The notes below the pieces were generated by a model that did not search any database, was not told the DNA's origin, and saw only the letters and a program-made list of their open reading frames with translations. The translations under genes and the position numbers were made by a program. From the NCBI GenBank assembly GCA_001661245.1, contig KV454012.1:1724418-1788417 (forward strand): a stretch of DNA of 64,000 nucleotides, read 5' to 3'. This DNA comes from Pachysolen tannophilus NRRL Y-2460. Taxonomy: Eukaryota. The stretch's first letter is position 1. Each line of letters begins with the position of its first letter. This document shows positions 1 through 53,967 of the stretch, in pieces.

Positions 1-1034
1 TTTGGTAAATTCCAGCTCAAATATAATTTACATACATCCAAATTATTTACTAGATCACAGTATTCAGTTGAATCCAGCTGTTCTGGAATAAGATTCAGCG
101 GTTGAATAAGTAGAGGAGGTTGAAGTGGAGTTTCAGATTTCTCATTATGTAGTGACAATTTATATTTCGGGTGAAGCCCAATTGGTTTTATAAATTCATT
201 CTTGTAAGAAATATCGAGCAATGTCCTGTGCCTAGGTGTAAACTGGAAGCTGGTCTTCATAGGAACAATGTCATCACTATTATCCAAGACAAACCTAACT
301 CCAGCAAGACCAGTGTTATCAACATTGGTCAATTTCTCTTCGATAGTGAAAATTCCAACCTCAGTCTTGTAATCTTGTTTTTTGGTAAAAATCAAATCTT
401 CAGAGGCCATTACGTCCAGCCAGTAAAATTGGACCATAAATTTATCAGAATTATTAATCGAATCATAGCTAATCTCTAAATATTGAAAGTCTGTAGATAT
501 ACTTTTTTCTAATATGTCTTCAATTGATTTTTTTAAACTATAAGATATTTCGTTTGTTGGTTCAAAGTACTTCAATGCGGTTGGTGTAACAATAAACTCA
601 TTGAATAAAACAGATTCATCATTAATGTCAGCGTACAACAATTTTTTAAGCTCCTGATTTATTGCAGTAATTGTTTTGTTGAAATTTGTTTCATAAACAC
701 CGGCTGAATCATCAGCAATTTGTGGGATAAAGTTGACACTTAATCCAGGAGAAGCAACATCACCAAAGATGGAAGAATCATAATCTTCAAGTTTAGAAAA
801 TTGTAGGCGAAACGAATAGCAATCCTTTAAAATCTTGAGCAAATGTGATTCATATGAAACATCTTTTAAAATTCGAGCTATTGGTATTGTGAATCTATCC
901 TGTCTCTTAAATGGTACAATTGTCGAAGGAAGAGTTATTGAGTAAGCTTTATCAATCTTAACCTTTTCATGAAACTGTAATTCGGATGACTTGGGAATTA
1001 TAATTGTTGTCCTTTGGACAATATTTGTAGACAT
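1..1034 (-). CDS. PBN1: PBN1/PIG-X, GPI mannosyltransferase I subunit (3' end runs off the window)
   Basis: Not in the ORF track; hand-translated at both ends and in part internally. ATG at 1034 gives MSTNIVQRTTIIIP; later KTEVGIFTIEE..LAGVRF..KTSFQFTPRH..KPIGLHPKY..CKLYLSWNLP, matching Pbn1 motifs (EVGVF, PIGLHPK). Confidence 0.85.
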   Translation of the reverse strand, partial: MSTNIVQRTTIIIPKSSELQFHEKVKIDKAYSITLPSTIVPFKRQDRFTIPIARILKDVSYESHLLKILKDCYSFRLQFSKLEDYDSSIFGDVASPGLSVNFIPQIADDSAGVYETNFNKTITAINQELKKLLYADINDESVLFNEFIVTPTALKYFEPTNEISYSLKKSIEDILEKSISTDFQYLEISYDSINNSDKFMVQFYWLDVMASEDLIFTKKQDYKTEVGIFTIEEKLTNVDNTGLAGVRFVLDNSDDIVPMKTSFQFTPRHRTLLDISYKNEFIKPIGLHPKYKLSLHNEKSETPLQPPLLIQPLNLIPEQLDSTEYCDLVNNLDVCKLYLSWNLP

Positions 1035-1224
1035 ATTCCTTAAATATTGACCTTGAAATCATTCACTGCTAATATCTTAACTGTTATCTTACTTTTGATT
1101 TTTTAATGCAACTTGTTGATTTTTCAGTAATTTTTTATTTTTTTATTTTTTATTTTTAACTACGCGTTAAAAAGAAGAGATTTTATAACATTATTGCTTT
1201 GAAACAAAAAGACGGTACGTTCAT

Positions 1225-1533
1225 ATGGGCCTAACTTCGTTGGAAAGCATTCACAGGAAGAGGAGAGGATCATTCTTTGAAAGAAAGAGTTTTGGTGATG
1301 ATGATAGTTGTAATTTGGAGAATTGTTTGGATGAAAAAAGAAAGCAAGATCGAACTGTTAAAACAAATCATTATATAACAATAGATTTAATGATGAATGC
1401 TTCTAGAAATGCATATAAGCTGTTAGAAGCTGGTGATGGCAATGGAGATAATCTTGAAGAGAAAGAAACGCCCCTAGAGGATACTTTCAAGCAGAAACCT
1501 TTTTGGCCAGTTATCACAAGAATACGACAATAA
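1225..1533 (+). CDS. Small uncharacterised protein (102 aa); 3' end coincides with a putative inversion breakpoint
   Basis: ATG-initiated ORF with coding-like composition, divergent from PBN1; ACGCGT at 1162-1167; no family recognised. Confidence 0.5.
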   Translation: MGLTSLESIHRKRRGSFFERKSFGDDDSCNLENCLDEKRKQDRTVKTNHYITIDLMMNASRNAYKLLEAGDGNGDNLEEKETPLEDTFKQKPFWPVITRIRQ

Positions 1534-1601
1534 AAAAGGCGGAAAACTCAGGTTTGTTGACTAAAGTTGGCGAATTTTTATTTGGTTTCAATAAAATCTG
1601 A
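1533..1601 (+). other. Orphaned Nup53-type C-terminal amphipathic helix coding segment, inverted relative to NUP53
   Basis: + strand reads KKAENSGLLTKVGEFLFGFNKI* (TGA 1599-1601), resembling the Nup53/Nup35 terminal helix (..LFGWNDL-like), which the - strand NUP53 frame lacks. Confidence 0.75.
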
Positions 1602-1699
1602 AATACTCCAAAACTAGGTTAGATCTCTTTTTTTTTTTTTTTTTTTTTTTTTGGCATTTGGACTTTTTTAACTTAATAATAATATATTTAAAATTGATT

Positions 1700-3396
1700 C
1701 TATCTATATGTATAATCCTGTTCTTCTAATTGCTTATGTTTATTTATAAATAAATCGGTACCATCTTTAATCTTTAAAGTGTTTGGTCCGATTTGCGAAT
1801 TTGTCGTCAAATCGAAAACTTCATTTTTTGCTGTATTGACTGGTGTACTAAAACTTTTATTATATTCTCGAAAGGCACCTGGGATTTCAGCTTCTTTAAT
1901 CTCAGATGGAAGTATGTTGTTAATTCTAGCATTTTCACCTTTATTACTTGGTGTACTTAGTAATAATTCAGTTTTTGTGCTGGAATTTAAAGTAGTTCCT
2001 CCAATGTCATCTTCATTTGTAATCTTTCTATTTAATAATTTCTCTAGTATTTCTTTTTGGTAGGGAATAACAGATATTATAATATCATCCTCTACAAAAT
2101 TTCCATTTTCTCTTATTGCTCTAATAGCTGAGGAAGGACTATCATATGTGATTTTAACCCAGTTTTTCCCAATGAATATAGGATATAATTTTTTGGTTTT
2201 AAAGGGGATGGAGCTGATAATGGTGTAGAATGATCCGAGTTGTTATTACTCAGTCTAGAATGTAACAGCGATTGAGGAGTTCCAGGAGGATTTCCAAATG
2301 TTGATCCGGAAGAGAATGGTGTTGGTGGAGGTAACTGATGCAACTGCGGAGTTTGTGAAATTATGTCTCCAAAATCTTCCAAGATACGTCCAAATTTGGC
2401 AAAATGTTTTAAAACAGTATGGAATGCAAAATCTGGATAACCATAAACCAATACTGCAGTTTCAATATCGTCATGATTGATAGATTTGTTCATTGATGGG
2501 GAAGCTATAGTATCAAAAAGATGTGAGTTATTAACTTCTTTAATGCGAGAGTTGAAATTTAATGAAGAAAATGCTGAAGGTGATGATGTTGTTTTAGCGG
2601 GAGTTTTAAATTTGTCTTGATCAGTAAAACGTTCTGGATAAACTACAGCATTTCTAATTATTTCATCATGCCTTTTATTGTCAATTCCAAATTGTTGTAG
2701 ATTGCCTGATGCAATTTTTTCATTAGTTAAAAGATATCTTGGACTAGAATTGAAAAAATTACTGAAATTATCTGGATGTGTATTAATTGACTCTGTTAAA
2801 GCAGCCACATTTTTCATCCTTAATTCTTCTTCTGTTAACAAATCATCATCATTATCATTATCGGAGAAATTCAAATCAAACATAGACTTTGATGGTGGTT
2901 TCTCATCATCATCAAAATTATCAGCGGTTAATAATGGATTTTCAATTATATCATAATTTCTATTACTTTTCCTAAATTTAGACAAAATATCTTTACTTTT
3001 ATTCTTATCATGCGATGAACTTGGAGATTGTGAATCATCTGAAATTGCTCCCAAATCTTTATTTTCTACTTTAGTTTCATCATCATTTTGATCTTGAAGA
3101 CTTTTCCTATTATTACCTAAAGTTCTCTCAATAACACGACCAGGTATTGTTCTTTTCTTTGGATTATTAATCCAAGATGGAAGTTGTTCTTGTTCTAAAA
3201 TTGCAAATACATTTTCACCAACATTATAATTATTTGCATTAGCATTTCCATTAGCTTTACGATTTAAAATAACAGCTGCTTTTGCTAAGTCAGAAAATCT
3301 TGACTGCTTGATTGGGGTATGCCCAGCACTCGACAAAGGAAATGACCTCTGTTGATTCACATCATTAAATATAGACGGCTGCACTTGATTAAACAT
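1700..3396 (-). CDS. NUP53: Nucleoporin Nup53/Asm4 family, with one frameshift near 2189-2203 and no terminal helix
   Basis: ATG 3396. RRM-like AVLVYGYP..LKHFAKFGRILEDF; after a -1 shift it continues LYPIFIGKNWVKITYDSPSSAIRAIRENG..VIPY..LKIKDGTDLF to TAG at 1700-1702. Confidence 0.85.
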
Positions 3397-4107
3397 TTTT
3401 TTATAATATCTAAGTCCACTGGTGAAACTGTGAAACTTCAATCAACCGATCAACCAAAATTGTAAATCTATAGAATTCAATTTAATATATATATATATTT
3501 ATATATATATATATTGATTGTATTAAGACTTTCTTTCCTTATAAAAAAAATTTCTTTGTTGATGATTTTCAAAATGGTTTCAGATTCTGTGCACGACCTT
3601 GTTTTTGTTTAATTTTCAATCACTATCTTAAACGGAAGGGAAATGATACCGGAGAATTTAGTAGATTACAGAATTTAAATCACAATGGTATAAGCTATTT
3701 TAAAACTGGATTGACAATATGATAAATCTATTAAATTCTAGATAAATCGTCAGAGCTAAATAAAAAAAAAAAAAAATTCGAAATGCAACTATTATGACAA
3801 AGAAATATTAAATTAAATTAAAAAAAAAAAAAAAAAAAATTGAATCATTATCAATAATCACTACATGTACATCAAATACTTTCAACTTTAAGAAAATAGT
3901 AATAGTAAATTGGGAAACAGAAATCAGAGTATACTGATTTTAAGTTTGTTTTTTTTTTTCGTTTTATTTTTTTTTTTTTTTGGATTTGTATTTTTTGTTT
4001 TCTTTGAAGTTTGAATTTTTCTCTTTTTTCTCTTTTTTTTTTGGGGGTACTTTTTTATTAAAATCTAATGGAAAAATAGTGGAATAGATTTGAAATCTAT
4101 TTCGGTT

Positions 4108-6507
4108 TTAAATTAGACTTGGACCATTATAGCCAGTATTTTGTTGTTGGGGGATTTGCATTGTGTTTTGGTTTTGTAAGAATGGGTTACCAGTGTTTTG
4201 TGGTCCTAAAGCCTGAGTTTGATTATTAGCAGTAAATCCTGTAGAGCTTGGACGTAAAGAAAATCCATTGTTAGTTGAAAAAGCAGTAGAAGCTGGAGGA
4301 ATCTGCAGTCCAGGATTGACATTATTATAATTAGCATATCCTGTGTAATTAGGTTGTACCGAAAAGCCTCCGTTGTTGAACATTCCAGTTGGTTGTTGTT
4401 GAAACTGTTGCTGTTGTTGCTGTTGGGCTAATTTAAGTTTTTGTTGTTCCAATTCAAATTGTGCTTTTAAATTCAGCTGCTCTTGAGCAAATTTTCTCTG
4501 AGTTTCAGGGAAAACAGGAACAGTTTGCCAATTCTCTAATCCACCAGCAGTTACCTGTGGCCTTAGAGGGTTCTGTTGTTGTTGTTGAGCAGAAGAATTT
4601 GGTTCTTCTGCCGATCTGAATGGATTTGTACCCGTATGCATAGCACTAAGCGACATCCTTTGTTCTGGCTTAGTTGTCCCAGTTTTACTGAATGTCAACG
4701 CTGTGGTACCACTTTTATCAGAAAATCTGGTATTGCTGAATGGATTGGTTGTTGGGTTACTAGGCGGACTGTGAGATGATGATGATTCTTCTTGTATATT
4801 GGCCAAAGCGAATGGATTTAATTTTGAAGAACGACGGTTCTGTTGACCCAGATGCTGCTGGAAAACAGTACCAGTGTTAGTGGTGGTTAATAGTGGTTGC
4901 TGTTGGAAAACGTTGCCGGTTGCTGTTGATGTAAGTGGTTGCTGTTGTTGGAAATTGCCTATACCACCAAAAGTCGAAACTGCTCTATTGCCTACATCAC
5001 TAGAAAATGGATTGGTATGCAGATACTGCAATGGCTGTGGCTGTGACTGTGGTTGAGCACTATAACCACCAAAACCAGTACCAGTAAATGCGGTTGTAAG
5101 CAGTGGCAGTGGCAGGGGCTGTGATTGTTGCTGCTGGAAAATATTTGTACCTGCACTGGTATGAAATGGATGTAGTGGCTGCAAGTGTTGTTGTTGTTGT
5201 TGTTGGTCCGACGCAAATCCAGTAGCAGTGAAAACTGGAGTTAGGGCAATTGGTTGCAGCAGCAGCTGCAGCTGCTGCTGCTGGGAAATTGCTGGTTGTT
5301 GAGTAAATCCACCAGTTAATGCAGGTGTCAATACGGTAGTTGGGTTCTTGGAAAGTGCATTATTTGTATACTGCTGAGAGAACTGTTGATTATTGCTATT
5401 CGTAAATGCTGGTTGTTCGGTGAAACCAACATTATTTTGTTGGACCGAGAAATCCCAAGGATTGTAAGCAGTTTGGTTTTGGTTTTGGGTGTTTTGAGTT
5501 TGAGTAGAATTTGCTTCAACTTTCTGGGGTTCTTCCAATTTCTTGGGATCCAATGACTTTTCTTCTCTTAATAAATTAGTATTGGAACCAGTTTTCTTAT
5601 TTTGATATTCTTTACCCCTTTTTTCGGCCAAATACTGAGATCTATTGAGTTCAAAACTTGGATCGTTTAAATAATCTTCCAACGAATTAGCTAAAGCAGT
5701 AGGAGCATGCTTTATAGTTGGAACATGTAATTTAGTAGCATATTCTAAATGCTTAGCTATTCTCAAATATGAAACTACATCTGCAGTTTGTTCAACAAAA
5801 TCTTTATAAATATTTAATGCTCTCTCTGCATCAACTTTACTCATTTCAAAATAATGTTCCAAAATATTAATCACCCCTTCGTTTAAACATTGGTAAAGCG
5901 ATAACAAATCATGAACCAACATTCTAAAACTTGTTAAAATGATATCGTTATTCACTTCAGCTTCAGCATATTTACAACGTAATAAAGCATCGATTTGTCT
6001 TTGAACACTTTCAACTTCTCTTAATACTCCTTTTTCAACAGTAAGACGTCTAAGTCTCCCACCGCTCTCTGGATTTGTGCTTGCTGCATTGTGGGCTCTT
6101 TCATCTCTAACATAGTCAATTTTTGTAGTTGCAAATTCTTTAGACCTTGTTATTAAATATTTGGAATAAGTTTTCAAAGTTCTAATATCACCATGATTCC
6201 CTTGACCTGCTGATCTTGAAACTGTAGTACACTCAAGCATTTTATAATGTTTCGCTAAATAAGTCAACGTTAAATCTCCTTCACCTTCCCTTATCATTAT
6301 ATGAACAACAAGTAAAGCTTTGAAAACAACCGACCATGCCGTATCCTGTAACCGAACTGATAAAGCTCTCATAATTGTTCTAAAATCTTCATCATTAATA
6401 TTTCTAGCAGAGTGCGTCACTATCAATATAGGCTCGATATATTTAGTCTTTGGTGCCGCAAGTTTAATCTTTGTAGCACCTTTGACAATCTTCTCATATG
6501 TCGTCAT
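4108..6507 (-). CDS. YAP1802: AP180/ANTH-domain clathrin adaptor (Yap1801/Yap1802 family)
   Basis: MTTYEKIVKGATKIKLAAPKTKYIEPIL ANTH N-terminus; Gln-rich tail with several NPF motifs. Confidence 0.92.
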   Translation of the reverse strand: MTTYEKIVKGATKIKLAAPKTKYIEPILIVTHSARNINDEDFRTIMRALSVRLQDTAWSVVFKALLVVHIMIREGEGDLTLTYLAKHYKMLECTTVSRSAGQGNHGDIRTLKTYSKYLITRSKEFATTKIDYVRDERAHNAASTNPESGGRLRRLTVEKGVLREVESVQRQIDALLRCKYAEAEVNNDIILTSFRMLVHDLLSLYQCLNEGVINILEHYFEMSKVDAERALNIYKDFVEQTADVVSYLRIAKHLEYATKLHVPTIKHAPTALANSLEDYLNDPSFELNRSQYLAEKRGKEYQNKKTGSNTNLLREEKSLDPKKLEEPQKVEANSTQTQNTQNQNQTAYNPWDFSVQQNNVGFTEQPAFTNSNNQQFSQQYTNNALSKNPTTVLTPALTGGFTQQPAISQQQQLQLLLQPIALTPVFTATGFASDQQQQQQHLQPLHPFHTSAGTNIFQQQQSQPLPLPLLTTAFTGTGFGGYSAQPQSQPQPLQYLHTNPFSSDVGNRAVSTFGGIGNFQQQQPLTSTATGNVFQQQPLLTTTNTGTVFQQHLGQQNRRSSKLNPFALANIQEESSSSHSPPSNPTTNPFSNTRFSDKSGTTALTFSKTGTTKPEQRMSLSAMHTGTNPFRSAEEPNSSAQQQQQNPLRPQVTAGGLENWQTVPVFPETQRKFAQEQLNLKAQFELEQQKLKLAQQQQQQQFQQQPTGMFNNGGFSVQPNYTGYANYNNVNPGLQIPPASTAFSTNNGFSLRPSSTGFTANNQTQALGPQNTGNPFLQNQNTMQIPQQQNTGYNGPSLI

Positions 6508-6920: not shown

Positions 6921-8516
6921 TTAAATTGTTGGTGATGGTTCTTTTGCGATTCTTTTCAAGAGAGAGTCGCTCCATTTAACCAAGACTTTGAACTGGTCTA
7001 TGGATATGCCCAAGTTTGTTGTTAGGTTATTCATAAGGAAGTTTTCTAAGTTGTTTAGATCTTTTATTGATAAAGTAGTGCTACTAGAAGTATGTGTAGT
7101 GGTAAATAGTCTTTGATAATATGTTTGAGTTGAATTGCGGGTTTCAACTTTTTCATTAGTAGTGTTGATTATATTTTCATTGGTATTGGATTTTTGATCT
7201 TGTAGTTGGAAAATGTCAAATAGTCTTTTCTTAGCTAGGGATTTGTTATTATGGTTGATTTCGTCATTTTCGTTGCTCAATAAATTCATTTCACACCATT
7301 TCAAATAGTTATCTGTCTTGAAATCATTCCAGTTAAGCAAGCTGTTATAACTGGATTGTTGGTAGATCAAGCTTGATAAGAAAACATCATTATCGCCATT
7401 ATTATTGCTACTGTTGATATCGTTCTGCAAAGAGTTCATAACCCCATACCAGCTTGGCAATAGCGATGAGTTAATGGTGAAATATAATTTTGCACATGAT
7501 ACTAACAATGCAACCACTTTCAATTCAGGAATATTGACTAATGATATCTTAACCAGAAACTTGTCTTTTTTGTTATAATTGAAAAAATTGGATAAATTTA
7601 AATTTATATCTTGTAAAAAAATGGCATTATTAACCATTATAGCAATTTCCATTGGTAAAATTAATTCTTTACATATTTTAAACAATAAAGGTTGATAATT
7701 TAATTCATAATCAAAATTTATAAAATCTTTCCTGTTTTTATTAAATTTTTTCAAATTTTTTAAAACAGAATAATATAATTCACCATTCATTGGTGGTTTT
7801 AAAGGTTCAAGCCCTCTTAAATAATAATTCAGTAGTTTTTTTTTGTTTCCAGGTGGAAGTAATGATGAAGATTTTAAATATGGTAGTTTGTTCACAGAAC
7901 ACCATTTGATGAAGTCGCTAATATAAATGGGTAATTTCAATTGTGCACATGCAAAGTAACACAAGACCAATGAATCTATCAATAATGGCAATTTGCTATA
8001 ATCGTATTCTCCCTCTTGATTAGAAATTTGCACATCACTACTAATTATCTCTTCATCCTCATCTTCATCTTCATCCTGTTGATTATTATTATTATTATCA
8101 CTATGATTGTCTTTTATAATAAGGTTCTGTGATAAATATATAACCCACAATTTCTTGAGTACATTTTCAAACTCTAAAGGAAATTTTTTTTCATTAATCA
8201 ACCATTCACATTGCTTGGATAATATAATCTGGTAGTTTCTAAGAAAAAATTGCTGACCTTTAATACCAAACAATTGTTCATCTGTTTTCTTTTGTTCTAA
8301 TCTCTGAGAATGCTGAGTACCTCCAGAGTTAGACAAAGTAGGTACATTGAGCCTCCTTGTTTGCACGTAGTTCTCATCATCATCATCGTTATATTCATAA
8401 TCACCTTCTCGCACATGTCCGTATTGACATATTTTTCTGCCAGCAATTGATCTCCATAACCTTGATCTACAGTTATCTGTACCACATATTGGACCTCTTA
8501 TCCAAACACTATTCAT
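6921..8516 (-). CDS. RRN7: RNA polymerase I core factor subunit Rrn7
   Basis: N-terminal zinc ribbon IRGPICGTDNCRSRLWR..CQYGHVREG. Confidence 0.92.
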   Translation of the reverse strand: MNSVWIRGPICGTDNCRSRLWRSIAGRKICQYGHVREGDYEYNDDDDENYVQTRRLNVPTLSNSGGTQHSQRLEQKKTDEQLFGIKGQQFFLRNYQIILSKQCEWLINEKKFPLEFENVLKKLWVIYLSQNLIIKDNHSDNNNNNQQDEDEDEDEEIISSDVQISNQEGEYDYSKLPLLIDSLVLCYFACAQLKLPIYISDFIKWCSVNKLPYLKSSSLLPPGNKKKLLNYYLRGLEPLKPPMNGELYYSVLKNLKKFNKNRKDFINFDYELNYQPLLFKICKELILPMEIAIMVNNAIFLQDINLNLSNFFNYNKKDKFLVKISLVNIPELKVVALLVSCAKLYFTINSSLLPSWYGVMNSLQNDINSSNNNGDNDVFLSSLIYQQSSYNSLLNWNDFKTDNYLKWCEMNLLSNENDEINHNNKSLAKKRLFDIFQLQDQKSNTNENIINTTNEKVETRNSTQTYYQRLFTTTHTSSSTTLSIKDLNNLENFLMNNLTTNLGISIDQFKVLVKWSDSLLKRIAKEPSPTI

Positions 8517-11820: not shown

Positions 11821-14800
11821 ATGGATGTCAACGGTGTCAATCAAATAATTGGAGCTTTGGGAATAGTTCATTCTCCAACTTCATCTAATGTGGAGCGCCG
11901 TCAAGCACAAGATGTATGTATTTTTACATGTATATATATATATATATATATGAATGATTATTGGTTTTTATTTATTAGTTTTGCACCAAGAATACGAATT
12001 ACTAACATGTTTGATAAAATATTTTTTTATTTTTTTATAGTTTTTGGAGAGAATTAAACAACAACAGGAGTCTCCTTATTGGGGGTATCAATTGGCTCTC
12101 CCAGATAATAATAATGATTATATTGTAAAACATTTTGGATTAAGTTTATTACAATCATCGATTTCTAATCACTATGATGATTTTGATTTGAATAAGCAAA
12201 TCACAGTGAGAAATTGGATCATTGAGTTGAGTAATAAATTATTGGGGAAAGATCCTCATTATATGAAAGAAAAATTGGCCTTTTTATGGGTGGATTTGGC
12301 CAAGAGATCATGGGGGACCTTATTATATAAACAAATCTCAGATACTAATAATGATATGAGTGGATCAGAAAATGGAAATAACAACGCTAGTAATGATAAT
12401 GATAATAATAGTTCGAGAGCGTTGTCAAATGAAGATTTATTGGAAAGTTGGAAAGATATGGATAAAGATTTATGGCAATTATGGAATCTAAATGCTTGTA
12501 CACGAGAATTGACATTTATCATTTTTAGAACATTGTTTGAAGATATATATATTTTAGAAGATCCAATTGCTATAATGAGACTGAAGGAATTAAGTTCATT
12601 ATGCCCAGAAATAGTCACTTCATCCAAAATTTTAAGTTTAAAATATGAACCAAATGAACAATTATCATTATTCAGAGCTTCTGATGAAGGTTGGTTAATA
12701 ACATGGTCAAATTTATTACAAGAATGTTTAAATAATTTAAATTCTATAAAGGATAAAGATAATGCAGAATATAAAACTTCAGAAAATTTTGTCATCAAAA
12801 TCTTACAAACTTTGAAAACATGTTTACATTGGATTTTACCTATAGCAATAAGAGAAGCACATATTTTGGCAAGATTGACGCAATGTTTTATGTTTTCAAG
12901 AAATGTTACAATAAGAATTTTAGCAACAGAATCTTTACATCTGTTGTTTACAAGATCTTTTTCTGATCAAGAAGATTTTTCAGAAATTGTTGGTGCAATT
13001 TTTACAAAAGATGGTATCAATATGCTATCACAAGGTTATCATTCAATACAATTGGATCCGGATGACATTGATGACCAATTATATTCGTTATTGAAAAAAA
13101 TGGTTGAAATGATCTTAGGGCTAACTGAATACTTGAATACTAATACAGGTAAGGTACGTGCTTTTGAACTTGCCCCAACTTCCGATATAAGAGGTTATTT
13201 GAATTTGGTTTTGGAAACAACAAATAATGAATCCTTAATAGTAAGCGGATTATCTTTACAATTTTGGTCTTCTGTCTTGAGGATTGATCAATTGGCAAGT
13301 AAACCAGAATATCAGGAGTTATTACCTAAATTATTGGAAGTTGCTTCAAATAGATTGATTAATTACGAAGACTTCAATGATGAATTACCAGCTAAAAAAT
13401 ACCTTGAAGTAGATTTTGAAGAACAATCCGATATCTCTGTTTTTTTGGCAAATTATAGAAAATTGATGGATGATGTTGTTAGAATCACGGTATGTCAGAA
13501 ACCAAAAGATGGATTGAATTGGTTAGAACTGAGATTAAATCAATTTTACTGTTCACCCTTAGGTCAAGAGAATATAGCCAATAATCATTTGACTTATAAA
13601 GGTGATGGAGCTGAATGTTACATATATGGATATTCTCAATTTATTATTATAGAAGCCTGTATTAGAGGTATATCTAGATGGCATATTTGGTATGATGATA
13701 AGCACGAAGACAAACAGCAGAAGGCTGAATATTTAAATACGCTTGTTGAGTCCTTGTGTGAAAAATTGTTAATGTTGCAAATTAAAGATCCCTTATTGTT
13801 AAGAAAACAAGTTCAAACATTGGTGCAATTCTCTCCATTATTGAAAGATTTTTCAAATAATTTGATGTTCAGGGTCTTGGAGAAAGTTATATTATCTTGC
13901 ACATATGAATATCCTGAAAATTCAACAGATGAAGAAAGAGAAAATATTAGAGACTTGAGAACTAGTTGCGGAACAGAATTAAATAGATTGGCATATTTGA
14001 TGCCTGAATCTTTGAAAGTCATTTTAAATGACTTAGAGGTTGCTATAAGTAATATTTTATCCTCTAACAAAGTGACTGATCATGAAGCCGTAGCTTTTAA
14101 GTCGTTTTTATTGGTTGTATCACAAAGATCATCAATCGATAATAAAGTTGAGAGATTTAGCAAGATTGTTGATCCAGAGTTGCTGGCATGGTCTGATCCT
14201 ACTACTGAAAAGGGGTTATTAGAACTTCCTTGGTTTATGGAAAGATTGGGTATTGTGAAAATTGCCGAATATTTTCAAAGTAGAGGTATAACATCAACCA
14301 CAAATTTGTTAGATGCTGAGATGGATGATACCGGAAGGAATTTGAAAAACGAGTTAAAGAAACATTGGTCCTCTGTTTTCCCAATTAGAGCCACTAGGAT
14401 ATTTATCCAATACAGCATCGAGAAATTGCCCCACGATTCTGAAGAATACCAAAACTTGTTGAAATTATGGAAACCGAGAATTCAACCAATATTACCACAT
14501 ATTCTTCAATTGATTCATCAAATTCAGTCTTACCATGATCCTAACAATTGGCAAGATTTACCAGTTGAAGTACAAAGTTTCGTTAAATATAGTTGTATGG
14601 AAAGATTTTGGCAACAAGGTGTTTCAATTCAGTCTAAGGAAACTTTTATGGAGGAAAATGTTAAAGCAATGCATACTTTAAGGGATTTTGCTGATAGTGT
14701 TGGCCACATTGTTAGGTATACTAGAGAGTATTCTTATTTAACTATTGGTTCGATTTCAGAGTTGGAAGAAACTTTGTATGAAGTTCCGAACATGGCAACT

Positions 14801-15787
14801 CAGTTATGGCAAGCTGTTGCTGGTTCTAGTGTTGGTATTACTTTACATTCATGGAGACATTTGATAAATCTAGTGTTGAGGTGTGTTATCAAAAATTGTC
14901 CTTTGAAATTTGTTGATACCTTTATGCTGGAGTTATTACCGCAGGTACTAACGACTTTAGATAATTTATTGTTGAAAAACTGGGAACGCATATATTTAAA
15001 AGGATTACAATTATCCGGAAACGAAGACGACCAAACTCTTTCAGAAGAAATGATGGAGGAGCATTTATTGAGACAGCTAACAGCAGTAGTTGACAGAATG
15101 TTAATTGATTTAGTTGGTCAATTAGGCCATGGAAAGTTGAACGAGTTACAAAAGGCCATCAGAAATTTAATTTTCAATAATGCCAATATATTAGCAATTT
15201 TCTTGCAGTTACTAAATCATATTATACTATTTAAGGATACAAGATGTTCATATAATGCTATATTAATCATGAGGAATTTAATCTCGGACGTCTTATTAAG
15301 AGATGAGGAAGTTGATAAATACATTACTAACACTTTTATTAAAACTTTGGTCACTATAATAAATGATCCATTTTTCCTGGACTGTAAGTCCGAGGCGGGT
15401 TATTTATTGACATCGATGTATCTTGCTTTGAGAAAGAAACATCAATATCCTCAAGACTTTTTAAATGACTTGATAAATGAGATTTCAAATGGTACGGATG
15501 ACAAGAAATCTGGTAGTGATAATATGTTTAGTATCAAACAATTGGAAGAGATATTGAATAAAACTCAATCAATAAGAATGCAGAAGAATATGATGGTCAC
15601 GTTTATAACTGTTGACAGTAATAGTGATCTAGAAGGTACCAATGGTGCTGGTAGTGGCTTTAATAATAATGGAACAAACAGAAAGAAAGATTTGGAAGAG
15701 GCTAATAACAGTAGAAAGAAGAAAACTGACGGTTCAAATATTGAAGATTATACCGGATTGAACAATTTATTTGGTGATGATGTATGA
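11821..15787 (+). CDS. MSN5: Karyopherin/exportin-5 Msn5; two exons (11821-11913, 12041-15787)
   Basis: Intron 11914-12040 with GTATGT, TACTAAC and TAG; splicing gives RRQAQD/FLERIK in frame; long HEAT-type protein with ERFWQQGVSIQSKETF. Confidence 0.95.
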
Positions 15788-36937: not shown

Positions 36938-38627
36938 ATGCAAGCTCCAGTTGTGTTTTTAAGTATGTTTTATTAAATTAAATTAAATTAAATTAAATTA
37001 AATTAGTGATTTCATTATTTTTAAATACTAACATGTTTTTTCAAATTTTTCAATTTTAGATGCATCAACTGAAAGACAATCCGGTCGTCAGGCCCAGATG
37101 TCAAATATCACTGCTGCAAAAGCTGTGGCCGATATTATAAGAACATGTCTTGGACCTAAAGCGATGTTGAAAATGTTGTTGGATCCAATGGGTGGAATAG
37201 TTTTAACCAATGATGGTCATGCTATATTAAGAGAAATTGATGTTGCTCATCCAGCTGCAAAATCAATGATTGAATTAAGTAGGACGCAAGATGAAGAAGT
37301 TGGAGATGGTACTACAACTGTAATAATATTAGCAGGTGAAATCTTGGCACAAACTTTCCCTTATATTGAAAAAAATATTCATCCAGTTATTATTATTCAA
37401 GCTTTAAAACAAGCTTTAACAGATGCTTTAGAAGTGATCCATGAAATATCAAGACCAATCGATGTTGAAAATGAACTGTCAATGATTCAACTTATTAAAC
37501 TGTCAATTGGTACAAAATATGTTAATCAATGGTCTGATAAAATGTGTCAATTAGCTTTAAAAGCTGTAAGAACAGTAGTAATAGATCATGGTGATGGTAA
37601 TAAAGAAATTGATATAAAAAGATATGTTAGAGTTGAAAAAATTCCAGGTGGAGAAATTACAGATTCAGAAGTCTTGGATGGTGTCTTATTAAATAAAGAT
37701 GTTACTCATCCAAAAATGAAAAGACATATTGAAAATCCAAAAATTATTTTATTAGATTGTCCATTAGAATATAAAAAAGGTGAATCACAAACAAATATTG
37801 AAATAACAAATGATGAAGATTGGAATAGAATCTTACAAATTGAAGAAGAACAAGTTAAAATTATATGTGAACAATTATTACAATTTAAACCTGATTTAGT
37901 TATAACTGAAAAAGGTGTAAGTGATTTAGCTCAACATTATTTACTTAAAGGTGGTGTATCATGTCTTAGAAGAGTTAAAAAATCAGATAATAATAGAATA
38001 GCAAGAGCAACAGGTGCAACTATTGTAAACAGAATTGAAGATTTAAAAGAATCAGATATTGGTAATAATTGTGGATTATTTAAAGTGGAATTAATTGGTG
38101 ATGAATATTATTCTTTTATTACTAATTGTGCTAATCCTCATGCATGTACTGTATTATTAAGAGGTCCATCAAAAGATGTCTTGAACGAAATTGAAAGAAA
38201 TTTACAAGATGCTACTTCAGTTGCAAGAAATGTTATGTTTGAACCTTCATTATCCCCAGGAGGTGGTGCTACAGAAATGGAAATTGCTGTTAGATTATCA
38301 GAAAAGGCAAAGTCTATAAAAGGTGTACAACAATGGCCTTACCAAGCAGTTGCTGATGCATGTGAAGTTATCCCAAGAACATTGATCCAAAACTGTGGTG
38401 GGAACCCAATTAGAGTCTTATCAAGTTTAAGAGCTAAACACGCAGAAGGTCATTCCACATTTGGTATAAATGGTGATAACGGAACAGTTGTTGACATGAA
38501 AGAATACGGTATATGGGAACCTGAAGTCATCAAGCAACAGAGTATCAAGACAGCAATTGAAAGTGCTTGTTTATTGTTAAGAGTTGATGATATTGTCAGT
38601 GGTGTCAGAAGAGGTGGCCAACAATAA
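36938..38627 (+). CDS. CCT3: Chaperonin CCT gamma subunit; two exons (36938-36962, 37060-38627)
   Basis: Intron 36963-37059 with GTATGT, TACTAAC (37026) and TAG; splicing gives MQAPVVFLNASTERQSGRQAQ; GDGTTT motif. Confidence 0.98.
36972..37004. repeat. (ATTAA)n pentamer repeat inside the CCT3 intron
   Basis: attaaattaaattaaattaaattaaattaaatt. Confidence 0.85.
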
Positions 38628-44693: not shown

Positions 44694-44797
44694 CTCCTCA
44701 TCAGGGGCTCGAACCCTGGACATTTCGGTCGACTTCTTTGTCTCGAAATGAAACAATCCTTAAAAGCCGAACGCTCTACCAACTGAGCTAATAAGGA
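44694..44797 (-). tRNA. tRNA-Lys(UUU) with 31-nt intron (44730-44760)
   Basis: TCCTTATTAGCTCAGTTGGTAGAGCGTTCGGCTTTTA[intron]ACCGAAATGTCCAGGGTTCGAGCCCCTGATGAGGAG; 73 nt mature; T-run terminator follows. Confidence 0.97.
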
Positions 44798-50762: not shown

Positions 50763-51082
50763 CTTGTCATTTCTAAATATCTATCTATGTCTTGAATATT
50801 ATTGTAGTTTTAGTCAATTTATATTTGATTTTGCTATATAAGACGCGCCTAAATTGTTGTTATTTTAAATAAACATGAAAAATAGAAAATAGCCCTATTT
50901 TTCACTGTTTTATTATATTTTCACTTTTCTACAATTACTTCTTCGCAAATCAATCCAAATGGCTTACACTTTTCTTATTATATTCTCTATAAACAGAAAA
51001 AGAGGAGAGAAAAGAAATAGAAGGAGACCGAAAGAAAGAAAGTAAGAAAAAAAAAAAAAAAAAAAGAAGAAAAAAAGTCAGT

Positions 51083-51158
51083 GAAGTCAGTGAGTGAAGT
51101 CAGTGAGTGAAGTCAGTGAGTGAAGTCAGTGAGTGAAGTCAGTGAGTGAAGTCAGTGA
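51083..51158. repeat. Perfect 13-bp minisatellite (GAAGTCAGTGAGT) x ~5.8
   Basis: Units start at 51083, 51096, 51109, 51122, 51135 and 51148 (partial). Confidence 0.95.
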
Positions 51159-51205: not shown

Positions 51206-53574
51206 TTAATTATTATTTTTCAGTTTTGATGAAAATTTTTTCAAATAAGTTTCAGCTTTGTTAAAATGGTCCACTATCGATTTGTCATTAATTAAACCTT
51301 TTGAATCAATCTCTCTCACGAGAGCAGCAACTTCATAGAAAATTCAACACCTTTAAGTAATTCTTCAAAAGGTGAGTTATGTAAATTGTTGAAATTTCCT
51401 AAAAACAAGTTTTTAGTTTTTGTAAGATCTTCGGAATTATTATTATATATTTCCAAGAAATGTAAGGCAAATATACCAACTAAAGTTGAATTGAAAATTC
51501 TATTAAAGGGTAATTGGGAATTTAAAATAAACCAATTTCTATTATTCCATTTAAATTTATCCTTTATATCGTTATTCATCAAGATAGTATATAAATTGGC
51601 TATTAATAATTCATTGATTTGTTCTTGTGATTTGGCAAAGATGGATCTAAATTGTAATAAGGATCTTGAAAATTTGTTCAAATAATTGATTGGTTTGGTT
51701 TGAAAAATTGGACACAATACTAAAATTTTAGAGATTAATATTATTAATTTTGAAATTTCTGGGCCAGCTGAAGATGGTATTTTCAATTCATTATTATTAA
51801 ATGAAATTAAATCATTCAATTTTAAAGTCTTACCAAATTTTCTTAAAAAATTTATAATTAAAAATAAATTTGTTGAGTAAAGAGATTTTGAAATTGTAGG
51901 TAATAATTCACCCCATGTTGTTAATTTGTTATCTTCACCAATATATTTCAAAATATATAAAGATCTCAATAAAGCTGTTGAAATGATTTGATTATTGGAA
52001 GAAAGCTTTTCCTGTAAATCTAAAGTCTTGGAAGAAATTGATTGATTAACGAATTCTTGATTAATCTTATCAAAAAATAATTTTATTTCAAAATCATCAT
52101 GTGAATTGTCAAAATTAACCGTAAAAGATCTTGTCTTAAAATAAACTGGAGGTGAAATTCTATGAGACAATTCAAAAACATCTGGTTTGTTCTCATTAAA
52201 ATATGTTGTTAAATTAATTTTTTTAACTTGATAATATCTGTGCATAAACTGTGTTAAAAGATTTAATGTCTTATTTTTCAACTCTAAAGAATCATCATCA
52301 GTCACTAATTTCAAATATAAAGGTGTTGGAGAACAATCTAAAGGTAATCTTTCAACATAATTTCCATATAATATTGCTTCAACACTTTTAAATTCAACTA
52401 AACCTACAGATTGATAAAAATAATATTCATTCGACAATCTTTGACCAATAAATTCATGAAGATCATTTGGTACTTTGACATCACTTTTGATAGTTTTATC
52501 TACTGCAAACAGTTGAGAAATTTTTTCCAACTCTCCATCAACATCATTTAATAGTTCAATCAGACCATTTTTCTTTAATACTGGCATAAATTTTAATACA
52601 GAACAGCCTTTAAAAAATTTTTCAGATATATTTTGATCCTGTAAAGCCAAAATTGTATTATAAACGGATCCACCACTTATTGTAACAAATTCATGCAACA
52701 TTTGGAAAGTAATCGCAGGAGAAGAGGGGAAAATTTGTAAAGAATCAGGTTGTAAATCATTACCAACAACCATTGAAATATCTAAAAATTGTTTTTCTGT
52801 TAAATTGAATTTGTTTAATATGAAATTTTTATCTAAAAATTTAAATTCTTTATTTTGAAATTCAATACAAAAGATAAATTTTTCACAGTTTTGCGATAAT
52901 AATAAATCTGTTGGACCATAAATAACATCAACAAATTTTCCTCTTAGTAAATAAGTTAATTGAATAAACGATGAATAAGGAGCAACTTGATAATCAATTT
53001 CTCTTTCAACAAAAAATTTTAATAAATCATTTAAAATAGGTCTTGAATCTATTGGACTATTAAATTCTCGGAAAGTCTCCGTTGTAGGCTTTTGTGGAGA
53101 AGATACCGCCGAGCTATGTCTATCCCAAACTTTTTTATGATGCTTCTCCAACAATGATAACTCAGAAGATGCATTTTTACTATCAAACGCCAAAGTATTT
53201 CTTAAACCTTGAAATACAAAAATTGGTTTAATATTCAATTCTTTAAAAATTTTTAAATCCAACTCAATATAATTCAATAAACTCAATGGGAACCCACCAA
53301 TGGCATCCAAGAAAGATTCTTTCTTAAATGTGAGTAACCTCGAAATATAATGATCAACATCGATCCCAATTGTAGAATTCTTCAAAATATCAATAGGATA
53401 ACTACCAACAGAATAATTATCAAAAAGATATGATTCAAGAGTTTTAACTAAATAAAAGAAAAAAAAAAAAGAAAGAACAGTATACTTTGTTAGTTTAAAA
53501 TTCCAATAATTCCAATATTTTACTTCTTCACCTTTAAAACAACTTCAACAACCATCAAATAACTTACTAGGCAT
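51206..53574 (-). CDS. MKT1: Mkt1, XPG/PIN-like post-transcriptional regulator; two exons and a frameshift near the 3' end
   Basis: Exon 1 53574-53568; intron 53567-53448 (GTAAGT, AACTAAC, TAG); gives MPIKTLESYLFD..GSYPIDILKNSTIGIDVDHY. A -1 shift at 51339-51342 extends the frame to TAA at 51206. Confidence 0.9.
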
Positions 53575-53615: not shown

Positions 53616-53967
53616 NNNNNNNNNNNNNNNNNNNNNNNNNNNNNNNNNNNNNNNNNNNNNNNNNNNNNNNNNNNNNNNNNNNNNNNNNNNNNNNNNNNNN
53701 NNNNNNNNNNNNNNNNNNNNNNNNNNNNNNNNNNNNNNNNNNNNNNNNNNNNNNNNNNNNNNNNNNNNNNNNNNNNNNNNNNNNNNNNNNNNNNNNNNNN
53801 NNNNNNNNNNNNNNNNNNNNNNNNNNNNNNNNNNNNNNNNNNNNNNNNNNNNNNNNNNNNNNNNNNNNNNNNNNNNNNNNNNNNNNNNNNNNNNNNNNNN
53901 NNNNNNNNNNNNNNNNNNNNNNNNNNNNNNNNNNNNNNNNNNNNNNNNNNNNNNNNNNNNNNNNNNN
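53616..53967. other. Assembly gap (N run) with duplicated flanks
   Basis: TTCTATCGTTTCTCTAAAAGTTTTTTTTCC+T-run occurs at both 53577 and 53968. Confidence 0.95.

What the first reader, a model, noticed from the sequence alone, without database searches (positions are those of the whole stretch)
1528..1732. ~0.2-kb inversion between a convergent small ORF and NUP53 swaps their C-termini
Seen: NUP53 (-) ends ..LFINKHKQLEEQDYTYR* without its membrane-binding terminal helix, while + strand 1533-1601 encodes KKAENSGLLTKVGEFLFGFNKI*. The junctions share an inverted 4-mer, CAAT (1528-1531) and ATTG (1729-1732). Known: Nup53/Nup35 proteins end in an amphipathic ..LFG(W/F)NxL-type helix. Inference: re-inversion extends the small ORF in frame (..RIRQLEEQDYTYR*). 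It also reattaches the helix to Nup53, but only if the CAAT copy is removed and the A6 run at 1532-1537 is one base shorter, so the exact breakpoint is not resolved.
Basis: partly seen in the sequence, partly recalled or inferred. Interest (0 to 1): 0.8.

Follow-up and report, generated by a model that had tools for sequence, protein, structure and literature searches.

The report
Assembly error flips yeast NUP53 tail
A 185-base piece carrying the membrane-binding tail of the nuclear-pore gene NUP53 sits backwards in this yeast genome assembly, but contigs built from the sequencing runs that were checked show it the normal way round, so this is most likely an assembly error and the gene is ordinary.

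Summary
The inversion is in the assembly, but most likely not in the organism. Contigs of 4 of 4 runs laid on the locus (at most 2 samples, 2 studies) join 1532 to 1717 and 1718 to 1533 on opposite strands; none runs collinear across either junction. The flipped piece is 1533-1717, blunt-ended, without inverted repeats. In the read-supported form NUP53 ends ...LEEQ|KKAEN...FLFGFNKI* with no base removed, and the small ORF keeps its 102 residues; only its stop changes, TAA to TAG. There is no C-terminal swap. The + strand peptide is Nup53's terminal helix: a profile from 82 homolog tails finds it alone among 3019 six-frame segments (E 5.5e-6). The same 4 runs also show one extra T behind 2188 that removes a frameshift in the RRM domain, giving one 582-residue gene. 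Verdict: misassembly of an ordinary NUP53. Contigs drop rare variants, so a minority or clone-specific inversion is not strictly excluded (about 5%).

The parts
1533..1717 (.). 185-base segment that is reverse-complemented in the assembly relative to the contigs of the sequencing runs; blunt ends, no inverted repeat
   Evidence: Joints 1532->1717 and 1533->1718 'opposite strands' in 4 of 4 runs, sides 55 and 85 letters, 0 shared letters, no letters between; inward and outward inverted match 0
1533..1601 (+). Last 22 codons and stop of NUP53: the C-terminal amphipathic helix ending FLFGFNKI*
   Evidence: Tail profile hit E 5.5e-6; [F/L]G at -6/-5 as in 81 of 82 homologs
1718..3396 (-). Body of NUP53 (Nup53/Nup35 nucleoporin), 560 codons once the missing base is counted; single match in the genome
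   Evidence: Pfam RRM_Nup35 halves, 28.8 and 37.5 bits against a cut-off of 24; PDB Nup59 E 1.5e-15, Nup53 E 6e-15; one match in G000; 582 aa with the tail
2189..2194 (+). T6 run one base short in the assembly: false frameshift inside the RRM domain
   Evidence: One T put in behind 2188 in 4 of 4 runs; the two Pfam half-domains meet at profile position 38
1700..1717 (-). False end of NUP53 in the assembly (DYTYR*); in the read-supported form this is non-coding DNA just behind the small ORF
   Evidence: 0 of 82 homologs end in such a sequence
1225..1533 (+). Convergent 102-codon ORF without detected relatives; same protein in both arrangements (stop TAA in the assembly, TAG in the read-supported form)
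   Evidence: only its own record among 5 candidates; no Pfam hit; no usable Atlas hit by features
1628..1652 (+). T25 run in the middle of the flipped segment; the runs' contigs end in this region
   Evidence: region 1618-1662 skipped as a repeat and no listed piece crosses it
1528..1531 (+).
   Evidence: Contigs collinear through 1532; 5 inverted 4-mer pairs near the junctions, 95% background
1729..1732 (+).
   Evidence: Contigs collinear from 1718 on

Best explanation
The organism has one ordinary NUP53 gene of 582 codons ending in the family's amphipathic membrane helix, followed 115 bases later by the stop of a convergent small ORF. The assembly inserted the 185 bases 1533-1717 in the wrong orientation and also dropped one T from a homopolymer in the same gene. 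Shown: orientation in the contigs of four runs, exact breakpoints, intact reading frame, identity of the helix. Inferred, not shown: how the error arose. My best guess is that the T25 run broke the draft here and a short patch or small contig was put between the two flanks reverse-complemented, which leaves exactly such blunt joints with nothing lost or gained (about 60% among artefact routes; otherwise a chimeric read or graph error). That the protein binds the pore membrane through this helix follows from the family, not from a test here.
For: 4 of 4 runs laid, from at most 2 samples and 2 studies 12-13 years apart, have contigs across both junctions in the gene-restoring orientation, none collinear with the assembly; no substituted letters listed in 1.8 kb, so the DNA is otherwise the same. 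Each junction lies inside a long contig at ordinary depth (69-177), not in a side branch. A second, homopolymer-type disagreement between assembly and all 4 runs lies 470 bases away. No inverted repeat or microhomology at the breakpoints.
Against: All four runs are contigs, not raw reads; they show presence, not absence, and drop rare variants. No single contig spans the whole segment: they end around the T25 run, so 1618-1662 is not tested. It is not known that the assembly was built from one of these samples. The full-length protein was not found in the protein collection (a weak search) nor as a close hit among cluster representatives (none under 1e-30), so no independent annotated copy backs it.
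Confidence: 0.94

Rival explanations
1. A real one-off inversion fixed in the particular culture from which the assembly was made (blunt double break rejoined by end-joining), removing the helix; other cultures keep the intact gene.
For: The origin of the assembly's DNA is not established. Nup53 and its helix are dispensable in S. cerevisiae: the nup53 nup59 double deletion is viable (PMC3474928, PMC8700311, passages), so such a clone could live.
Against: It would need a second private change, the one-base deletion behind 2188, in the same gene, while no substitution is listed in 1.8 kb. Only one NUP53 match exists in this genome. Blunt joints with nothing lost, gained or shared at both ends are unusual for end-joining (own knowledge).
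Confidence: 0.04
2. A reversible or minority inversion switch that turns Nup53's membrane helix on and off within a population.
For: The flip cleanly removes a functional element, the helix whose loss suppresses ndc1 deletion in S. cerevisiae (PMC10165475, passages). Contigs drop rare variants.
Against: No inverted repeats at the ends for a recombinase or homologous recombination; both junctions are unbranched inside long contigs in 4 of 4 runs; a consensus assembly is unlikely to pick a rare form.
Confidence: 0.015
3. One reading: an inversion between CAAT and ATTG that swapped the C-termini of the small ORF and Nup53.
For: Re-inverting 1528-1732 does extend the small ORF in frame to 111 aa.
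Against: It truncates Nup53 at ...HKQ*; no clean breakpoint pair satisfies both genes, 0 of 1050; contigs are collinear across both 4-mers; the 4-mer match is background.
Confidence: 0.005

Closest known systems
Nup53/Nup59 (Asm4)/Nup35 inner-ring linker nucleoporins
   Same: RRM_Nup35 domain, matches to solved S. cerevisiae Nup59 and Nup53 chains, KDGxxLF-like motif and terminal [F/L]G-x4 helix in the read-supported form. Best representative hit is named as a Komagataella phaffii nuclear pore subunit.
   Different: One gene rather than the Nup53/Nup59 pair; a low-complexity insertion splits the RRM. Nothing unusual at the C-terminus once the assembly is corrected.
Local misassembly (small piece in the wrong orientation; homopolymer indel) in draft genomes
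   Same: Contigs from the runs contradict the consensus at both junctions; a second error nearby; a long homopolymer at the centre.
   Different: No N padding marks the joins, so the error is invisible from the sequence alone. The exact assembler step is not known; one literature search (listing only) gave no paper on this specific pattern.
Site-specific invertible DNA switches (Hin/Gin, fimS, shufflons that swap C-termini; FLP/FRT of the yeast 2-micron plasmid) - recalled, not from a call
   Same: In the assembly a short inversion replaces a protein's C-terminus.
   Different: No inverted repeat sites, only one orientation in the contigs, and the alternative end DYTYR is non-coding DNA with no counterpart in homologs.

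Membership tests
Nup53/Nup35 nucleoporins | RRM_Nup35 domain | tested here: met
   PF05172 positions 3-38 and 38-85 in the two frames, 28.8 and 37.5 bits, cut-off 24; joined by the extra T in 4 of 4 runs
Nup53/Nup35 nucleoporins | C-terminal amphipathic helix ending [F/L]G plus four residues | tested here: met
   81 of 82 homologs have it; 1533-1598 matches their profile, E 5.5e-6; attached in frame in the read-supported form
Nup53/Nup35 nucleoporins | Membrane binding and nuclear-pore localisation | not testable with these tools
   Known for S. cerevisiae and Xenopus proteins (PMC3474928, PMC10165475, passages); not tested for this protein
Site-specific invertible switch | Inverted repeat recombination sites at both ends | tested here: not met
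   0 matching letters inward or outward of the true breakpoints; no pair among 24 inverted repeats listed in 1400-1850 has its arms at both breakpoints
Site-specific invertible switch | Both orientations present in the population | tested here: inconclusive
   Only the intact orientation in contigs of 4 of 4 runs, but contigs drop rare variants
Site-specific invertible switch | Cognate recombinase gene | not tested
   Only 7 translations near the locus were scanned against Pfam; the genome was not searched for recombinases
Microhomology-mediated inversion | Shared letters at the junctions | tested here: not met
   'both' = 0 at each joint in all 4 runs
Local misassembly | Sequencing data contradict the consensus at both junctions | tested here: met
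   4 of 4 runs, sides of 55 and 85 letters
Local misassembly | The contradicting data come from the very DNA that was assembled | tested here: inconclusive
   No substituted letters listed in 1.8 kb, but the source of the assembly is not established

The most novel reading that the evidence does not exclude
The assembly caught a real, repeat-free 185-base inversion, clone-specific or at low frequency, that removes the membrane-binding helix of the genome's only NUP53: a natural helix-less allele of the kind that bypasses the need for NDC1 in S. cerevisiae.
Probability: 0.05. Interest if true: 0.55.

Novelty: not a real feature. Interest (0 to 1): 0.08.

Why it matters
As biology it is ordinary. 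Its use is as a correction and a warning. Two hidden errors make a conserved nucleoporin look broken: no close full-length record turned up in two protein searches, so surveys of nuclear-pore gene loss could wrongly score this yeast as lacking intact Nup53 or its helix. It also shows that this assembly holds at least one seamless short inversion without N padding, so other apparent inversions or frameshifts in it should be checked against reads first. If the inversion were real it would be a natural test of the Nup53 helix-Ndc1 balance.

Tried and rejected
No RNA holder listed in the run search. Word-based protein search with the 157-aa C-terminal part against longer proteins: 869 candidates, none scored; the HMMER search of representatives then found 82. 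The 22-aa tail alone against PDB sequences: 0 matches at E up to 10; too short for that search. Exact look-up of the frameshifted 427-aa product (tables 1 and 26), the 102-aa ORF and a 41-aa ORF: 0 of 4 in the collection, so how the public annotation models NUP53 is not known. Small ORF: no relatives among proteins of 56-179 aa (longer and shorter proteins not searched), no Pfam family, no usable Atlas hit, and structure rows rest on a model of pLDDT 0.39. A second copy of the segment or gene elsewhere in the genome: one match each (one search gave one unrelated 64-base match to the upstream T-rich region). Hydrophobic-moment scan of the tail gave moderate values, 0.39-0.46 over its core, without a control; not used as evidence. 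Literature search on small-inversion misassemblies gave nothing specific (listing only). Earlier findings were not available.

Full report
What is in the sequence. The window is gene-dense, about 30% G+C budding-yeast DNA. NUP53 lies on the - strand from 3396. In the assembly it is broken twice: a frameshift near 2190 splits the RRM_Nup35 domain into profile positions 3-38 and 38-85, and the downstream frame ends ...HKQLEEQDYTYR* at 1700. The gene's identity is supported by matches to solved Nup59 (E 1.5e-15) and Nup53 (E 6e-15) chains, and the genome holds one match to it and one to the segment.

The + strand peptide is Nup53's tail. A HMMER search with the 157-aa part 2188-1718, which excludes the tail, returned 82 homologs. 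81 of 82 have F or L followed by G at positions -6/-5, as does this peptide; the exception is P0073. None of 82 ends in anything like DYTYR. A profile of their last 28 residues, run over all 3019 stop-free six-frame segments of at least 12 residues in the window, finds the segment holding 1533-1598 alone (24.1 bits, E 5.5e-6; next E 0.52); the assembled end scores -0.7 bits. That this C-terminal helix binds and bends the pore membrane is established for yeast and vertebrate proteins (PMC3474928, PMC10165475, PMC8700311; I saw matched passages only).

The decisive test. Five public runs hold 95% of the sampled words of 900-3500: four from one sample (2010-2011) and one from another study (2023); two further listed runs hold next to none. 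I laid four of the five (X5, X1, X3, X4) on 900-2700. In 4 of 4, one contig runs along 1532 and continues on the opposite strand from 1717 downward (55 letters on the short side), and another runs along the NUP53 body to 1718 and continues at 1533 upward (85 letters). Neither joint has shared or extra letters. No listed piece crosses either junction in the assembly's orientation, and no substituted letters are listed. So the segment is 1533-1717, and it is the assembly that differs from the runs. All four also carry one more T behind 2188. Limits: these are contigs, which show presence and drop rare variants; three runs are one sample; the contigs end around the T25 run at 1628-1652, so 1618-1662 is untested; X1, X3 and X4 show 2 further unlisted gaps in 900-1532, and the tool dropped rows at repeats.

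What the read-supported form encodes. NUP53 becomes one open frame of 582 codons ending ...LEEQ|KKAEN...FLFGFNKI*, with nothing removed from the A6 run. The small ORF keeps its 102 residues and only its stop changes from TAA to TAG; 115 bases separate the two stops. The distance from the KDGxxLF-like motif to the end is 39, within the 29-69 seen in the 43 of 81 homologs that have the motif. The in-frame extension was therefore a coincidence, as was the 4-mer: five inverted 4-mer pairs lie within 15 bases of the junctions, and 4695 of 4945 random site pairs have at least one. The true breakpoints have no inverted repeat.

How it most likely arose. Shown: orientation, breakpoints, intact frame, a second disagreement 470 bases away. 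Inferred: a local misassembly. The long T run interrupts contigs even in the runs' own assemblies; a short patch placed reverse-complemented between two flanks would give blunt joints with nothing lost or gained. I could not see the assembler's layout, so this route is a guess (about 60% among artefact routes). A real inversion private to the assembled culture (4%) would need two private lesions in one gene and no substitution nearby. A reversible switch (1.5%) lacks recombination sites and any branch in four runs.

Comparison with known systems. The gene is a plain member of the Nup53/Nup35 family by both sequence features tested. The assembled arrangement resembles C-terminus-swapping inversion switches (recalled, not from a call) only superficially and fails their test for inverted repeats. 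One paper search on small-inversion misassembly (listing only) gave nothing specific; I make no claim about what is or is not in print on this locus.

Verdict. Not a real feature; interest 0.08. Its value is a corrected gene model and a caution about this assembly.

Noticed in passing
window 2189-2194: T6 in the assembly, one T longer in 4 of 4 runs: a second assembly error that fakes a frameshift in the NUP53 RRM domain.
   Followed up: yes
window 1420-1422 (codon 66 of the small ORF): The public record of this ORF (P0001) has Ala where table 1 reads CTG as Leu, so its annotators used a CUG-Ala code (table 26). A CUG-Ala yeast clade is known (PMC5951914, start of abstract). The code itself was not tested here.
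   Followed up: partly
window 1225-1533 (+): Orphan 102-codon ORF; its public record is 101 aa and stops one residue early, just before the false junction. Not explained. An ACGCGT (MCB-like element, label recalled) lies at 1162-1167 in the 190-base gap shared with the divergent gene at 1034.
   Followed up: partly
window 44694-44797 (-): tRNA gene with an intron, found by Rfam (54.1 bits) but missed by ARAGORN; anticodon reads TTT, so tRNA-Lys, by eye.
   Followed up: partly
window 51076-51158: 13-base tandem repeat AGTGAGTGAAGTC, 6.4 copies, 98% matches, between two - strand genes. Unexplained.
   Followed up: no
window 53616-53967 and 36608: A gap of 352 N and a single N. The - strand open frame 51319-53544 (742 codons) next to the gap has no ATG near its 5' end, which suggests an intron or a missing first exon.
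   Followed up: no
window 12041-15784 (+) and 37032-38624 (+): Long open frames that begin well upstream of their first ATG, with likely short first exons and introns upstream; not checked against reads, so frameshift errors are not excluded.
   Followed up: no
window 4108-6507 (-) and 6921-8516 (-): Upstream neighbours of NUP53 are an ANTH-domain protein and an Rrn7 protein; ordinary. The ORF 3-1034 (-) had no Pfam hit at E 0.1 in its 344-aa part within the window.
   Followed up: partly
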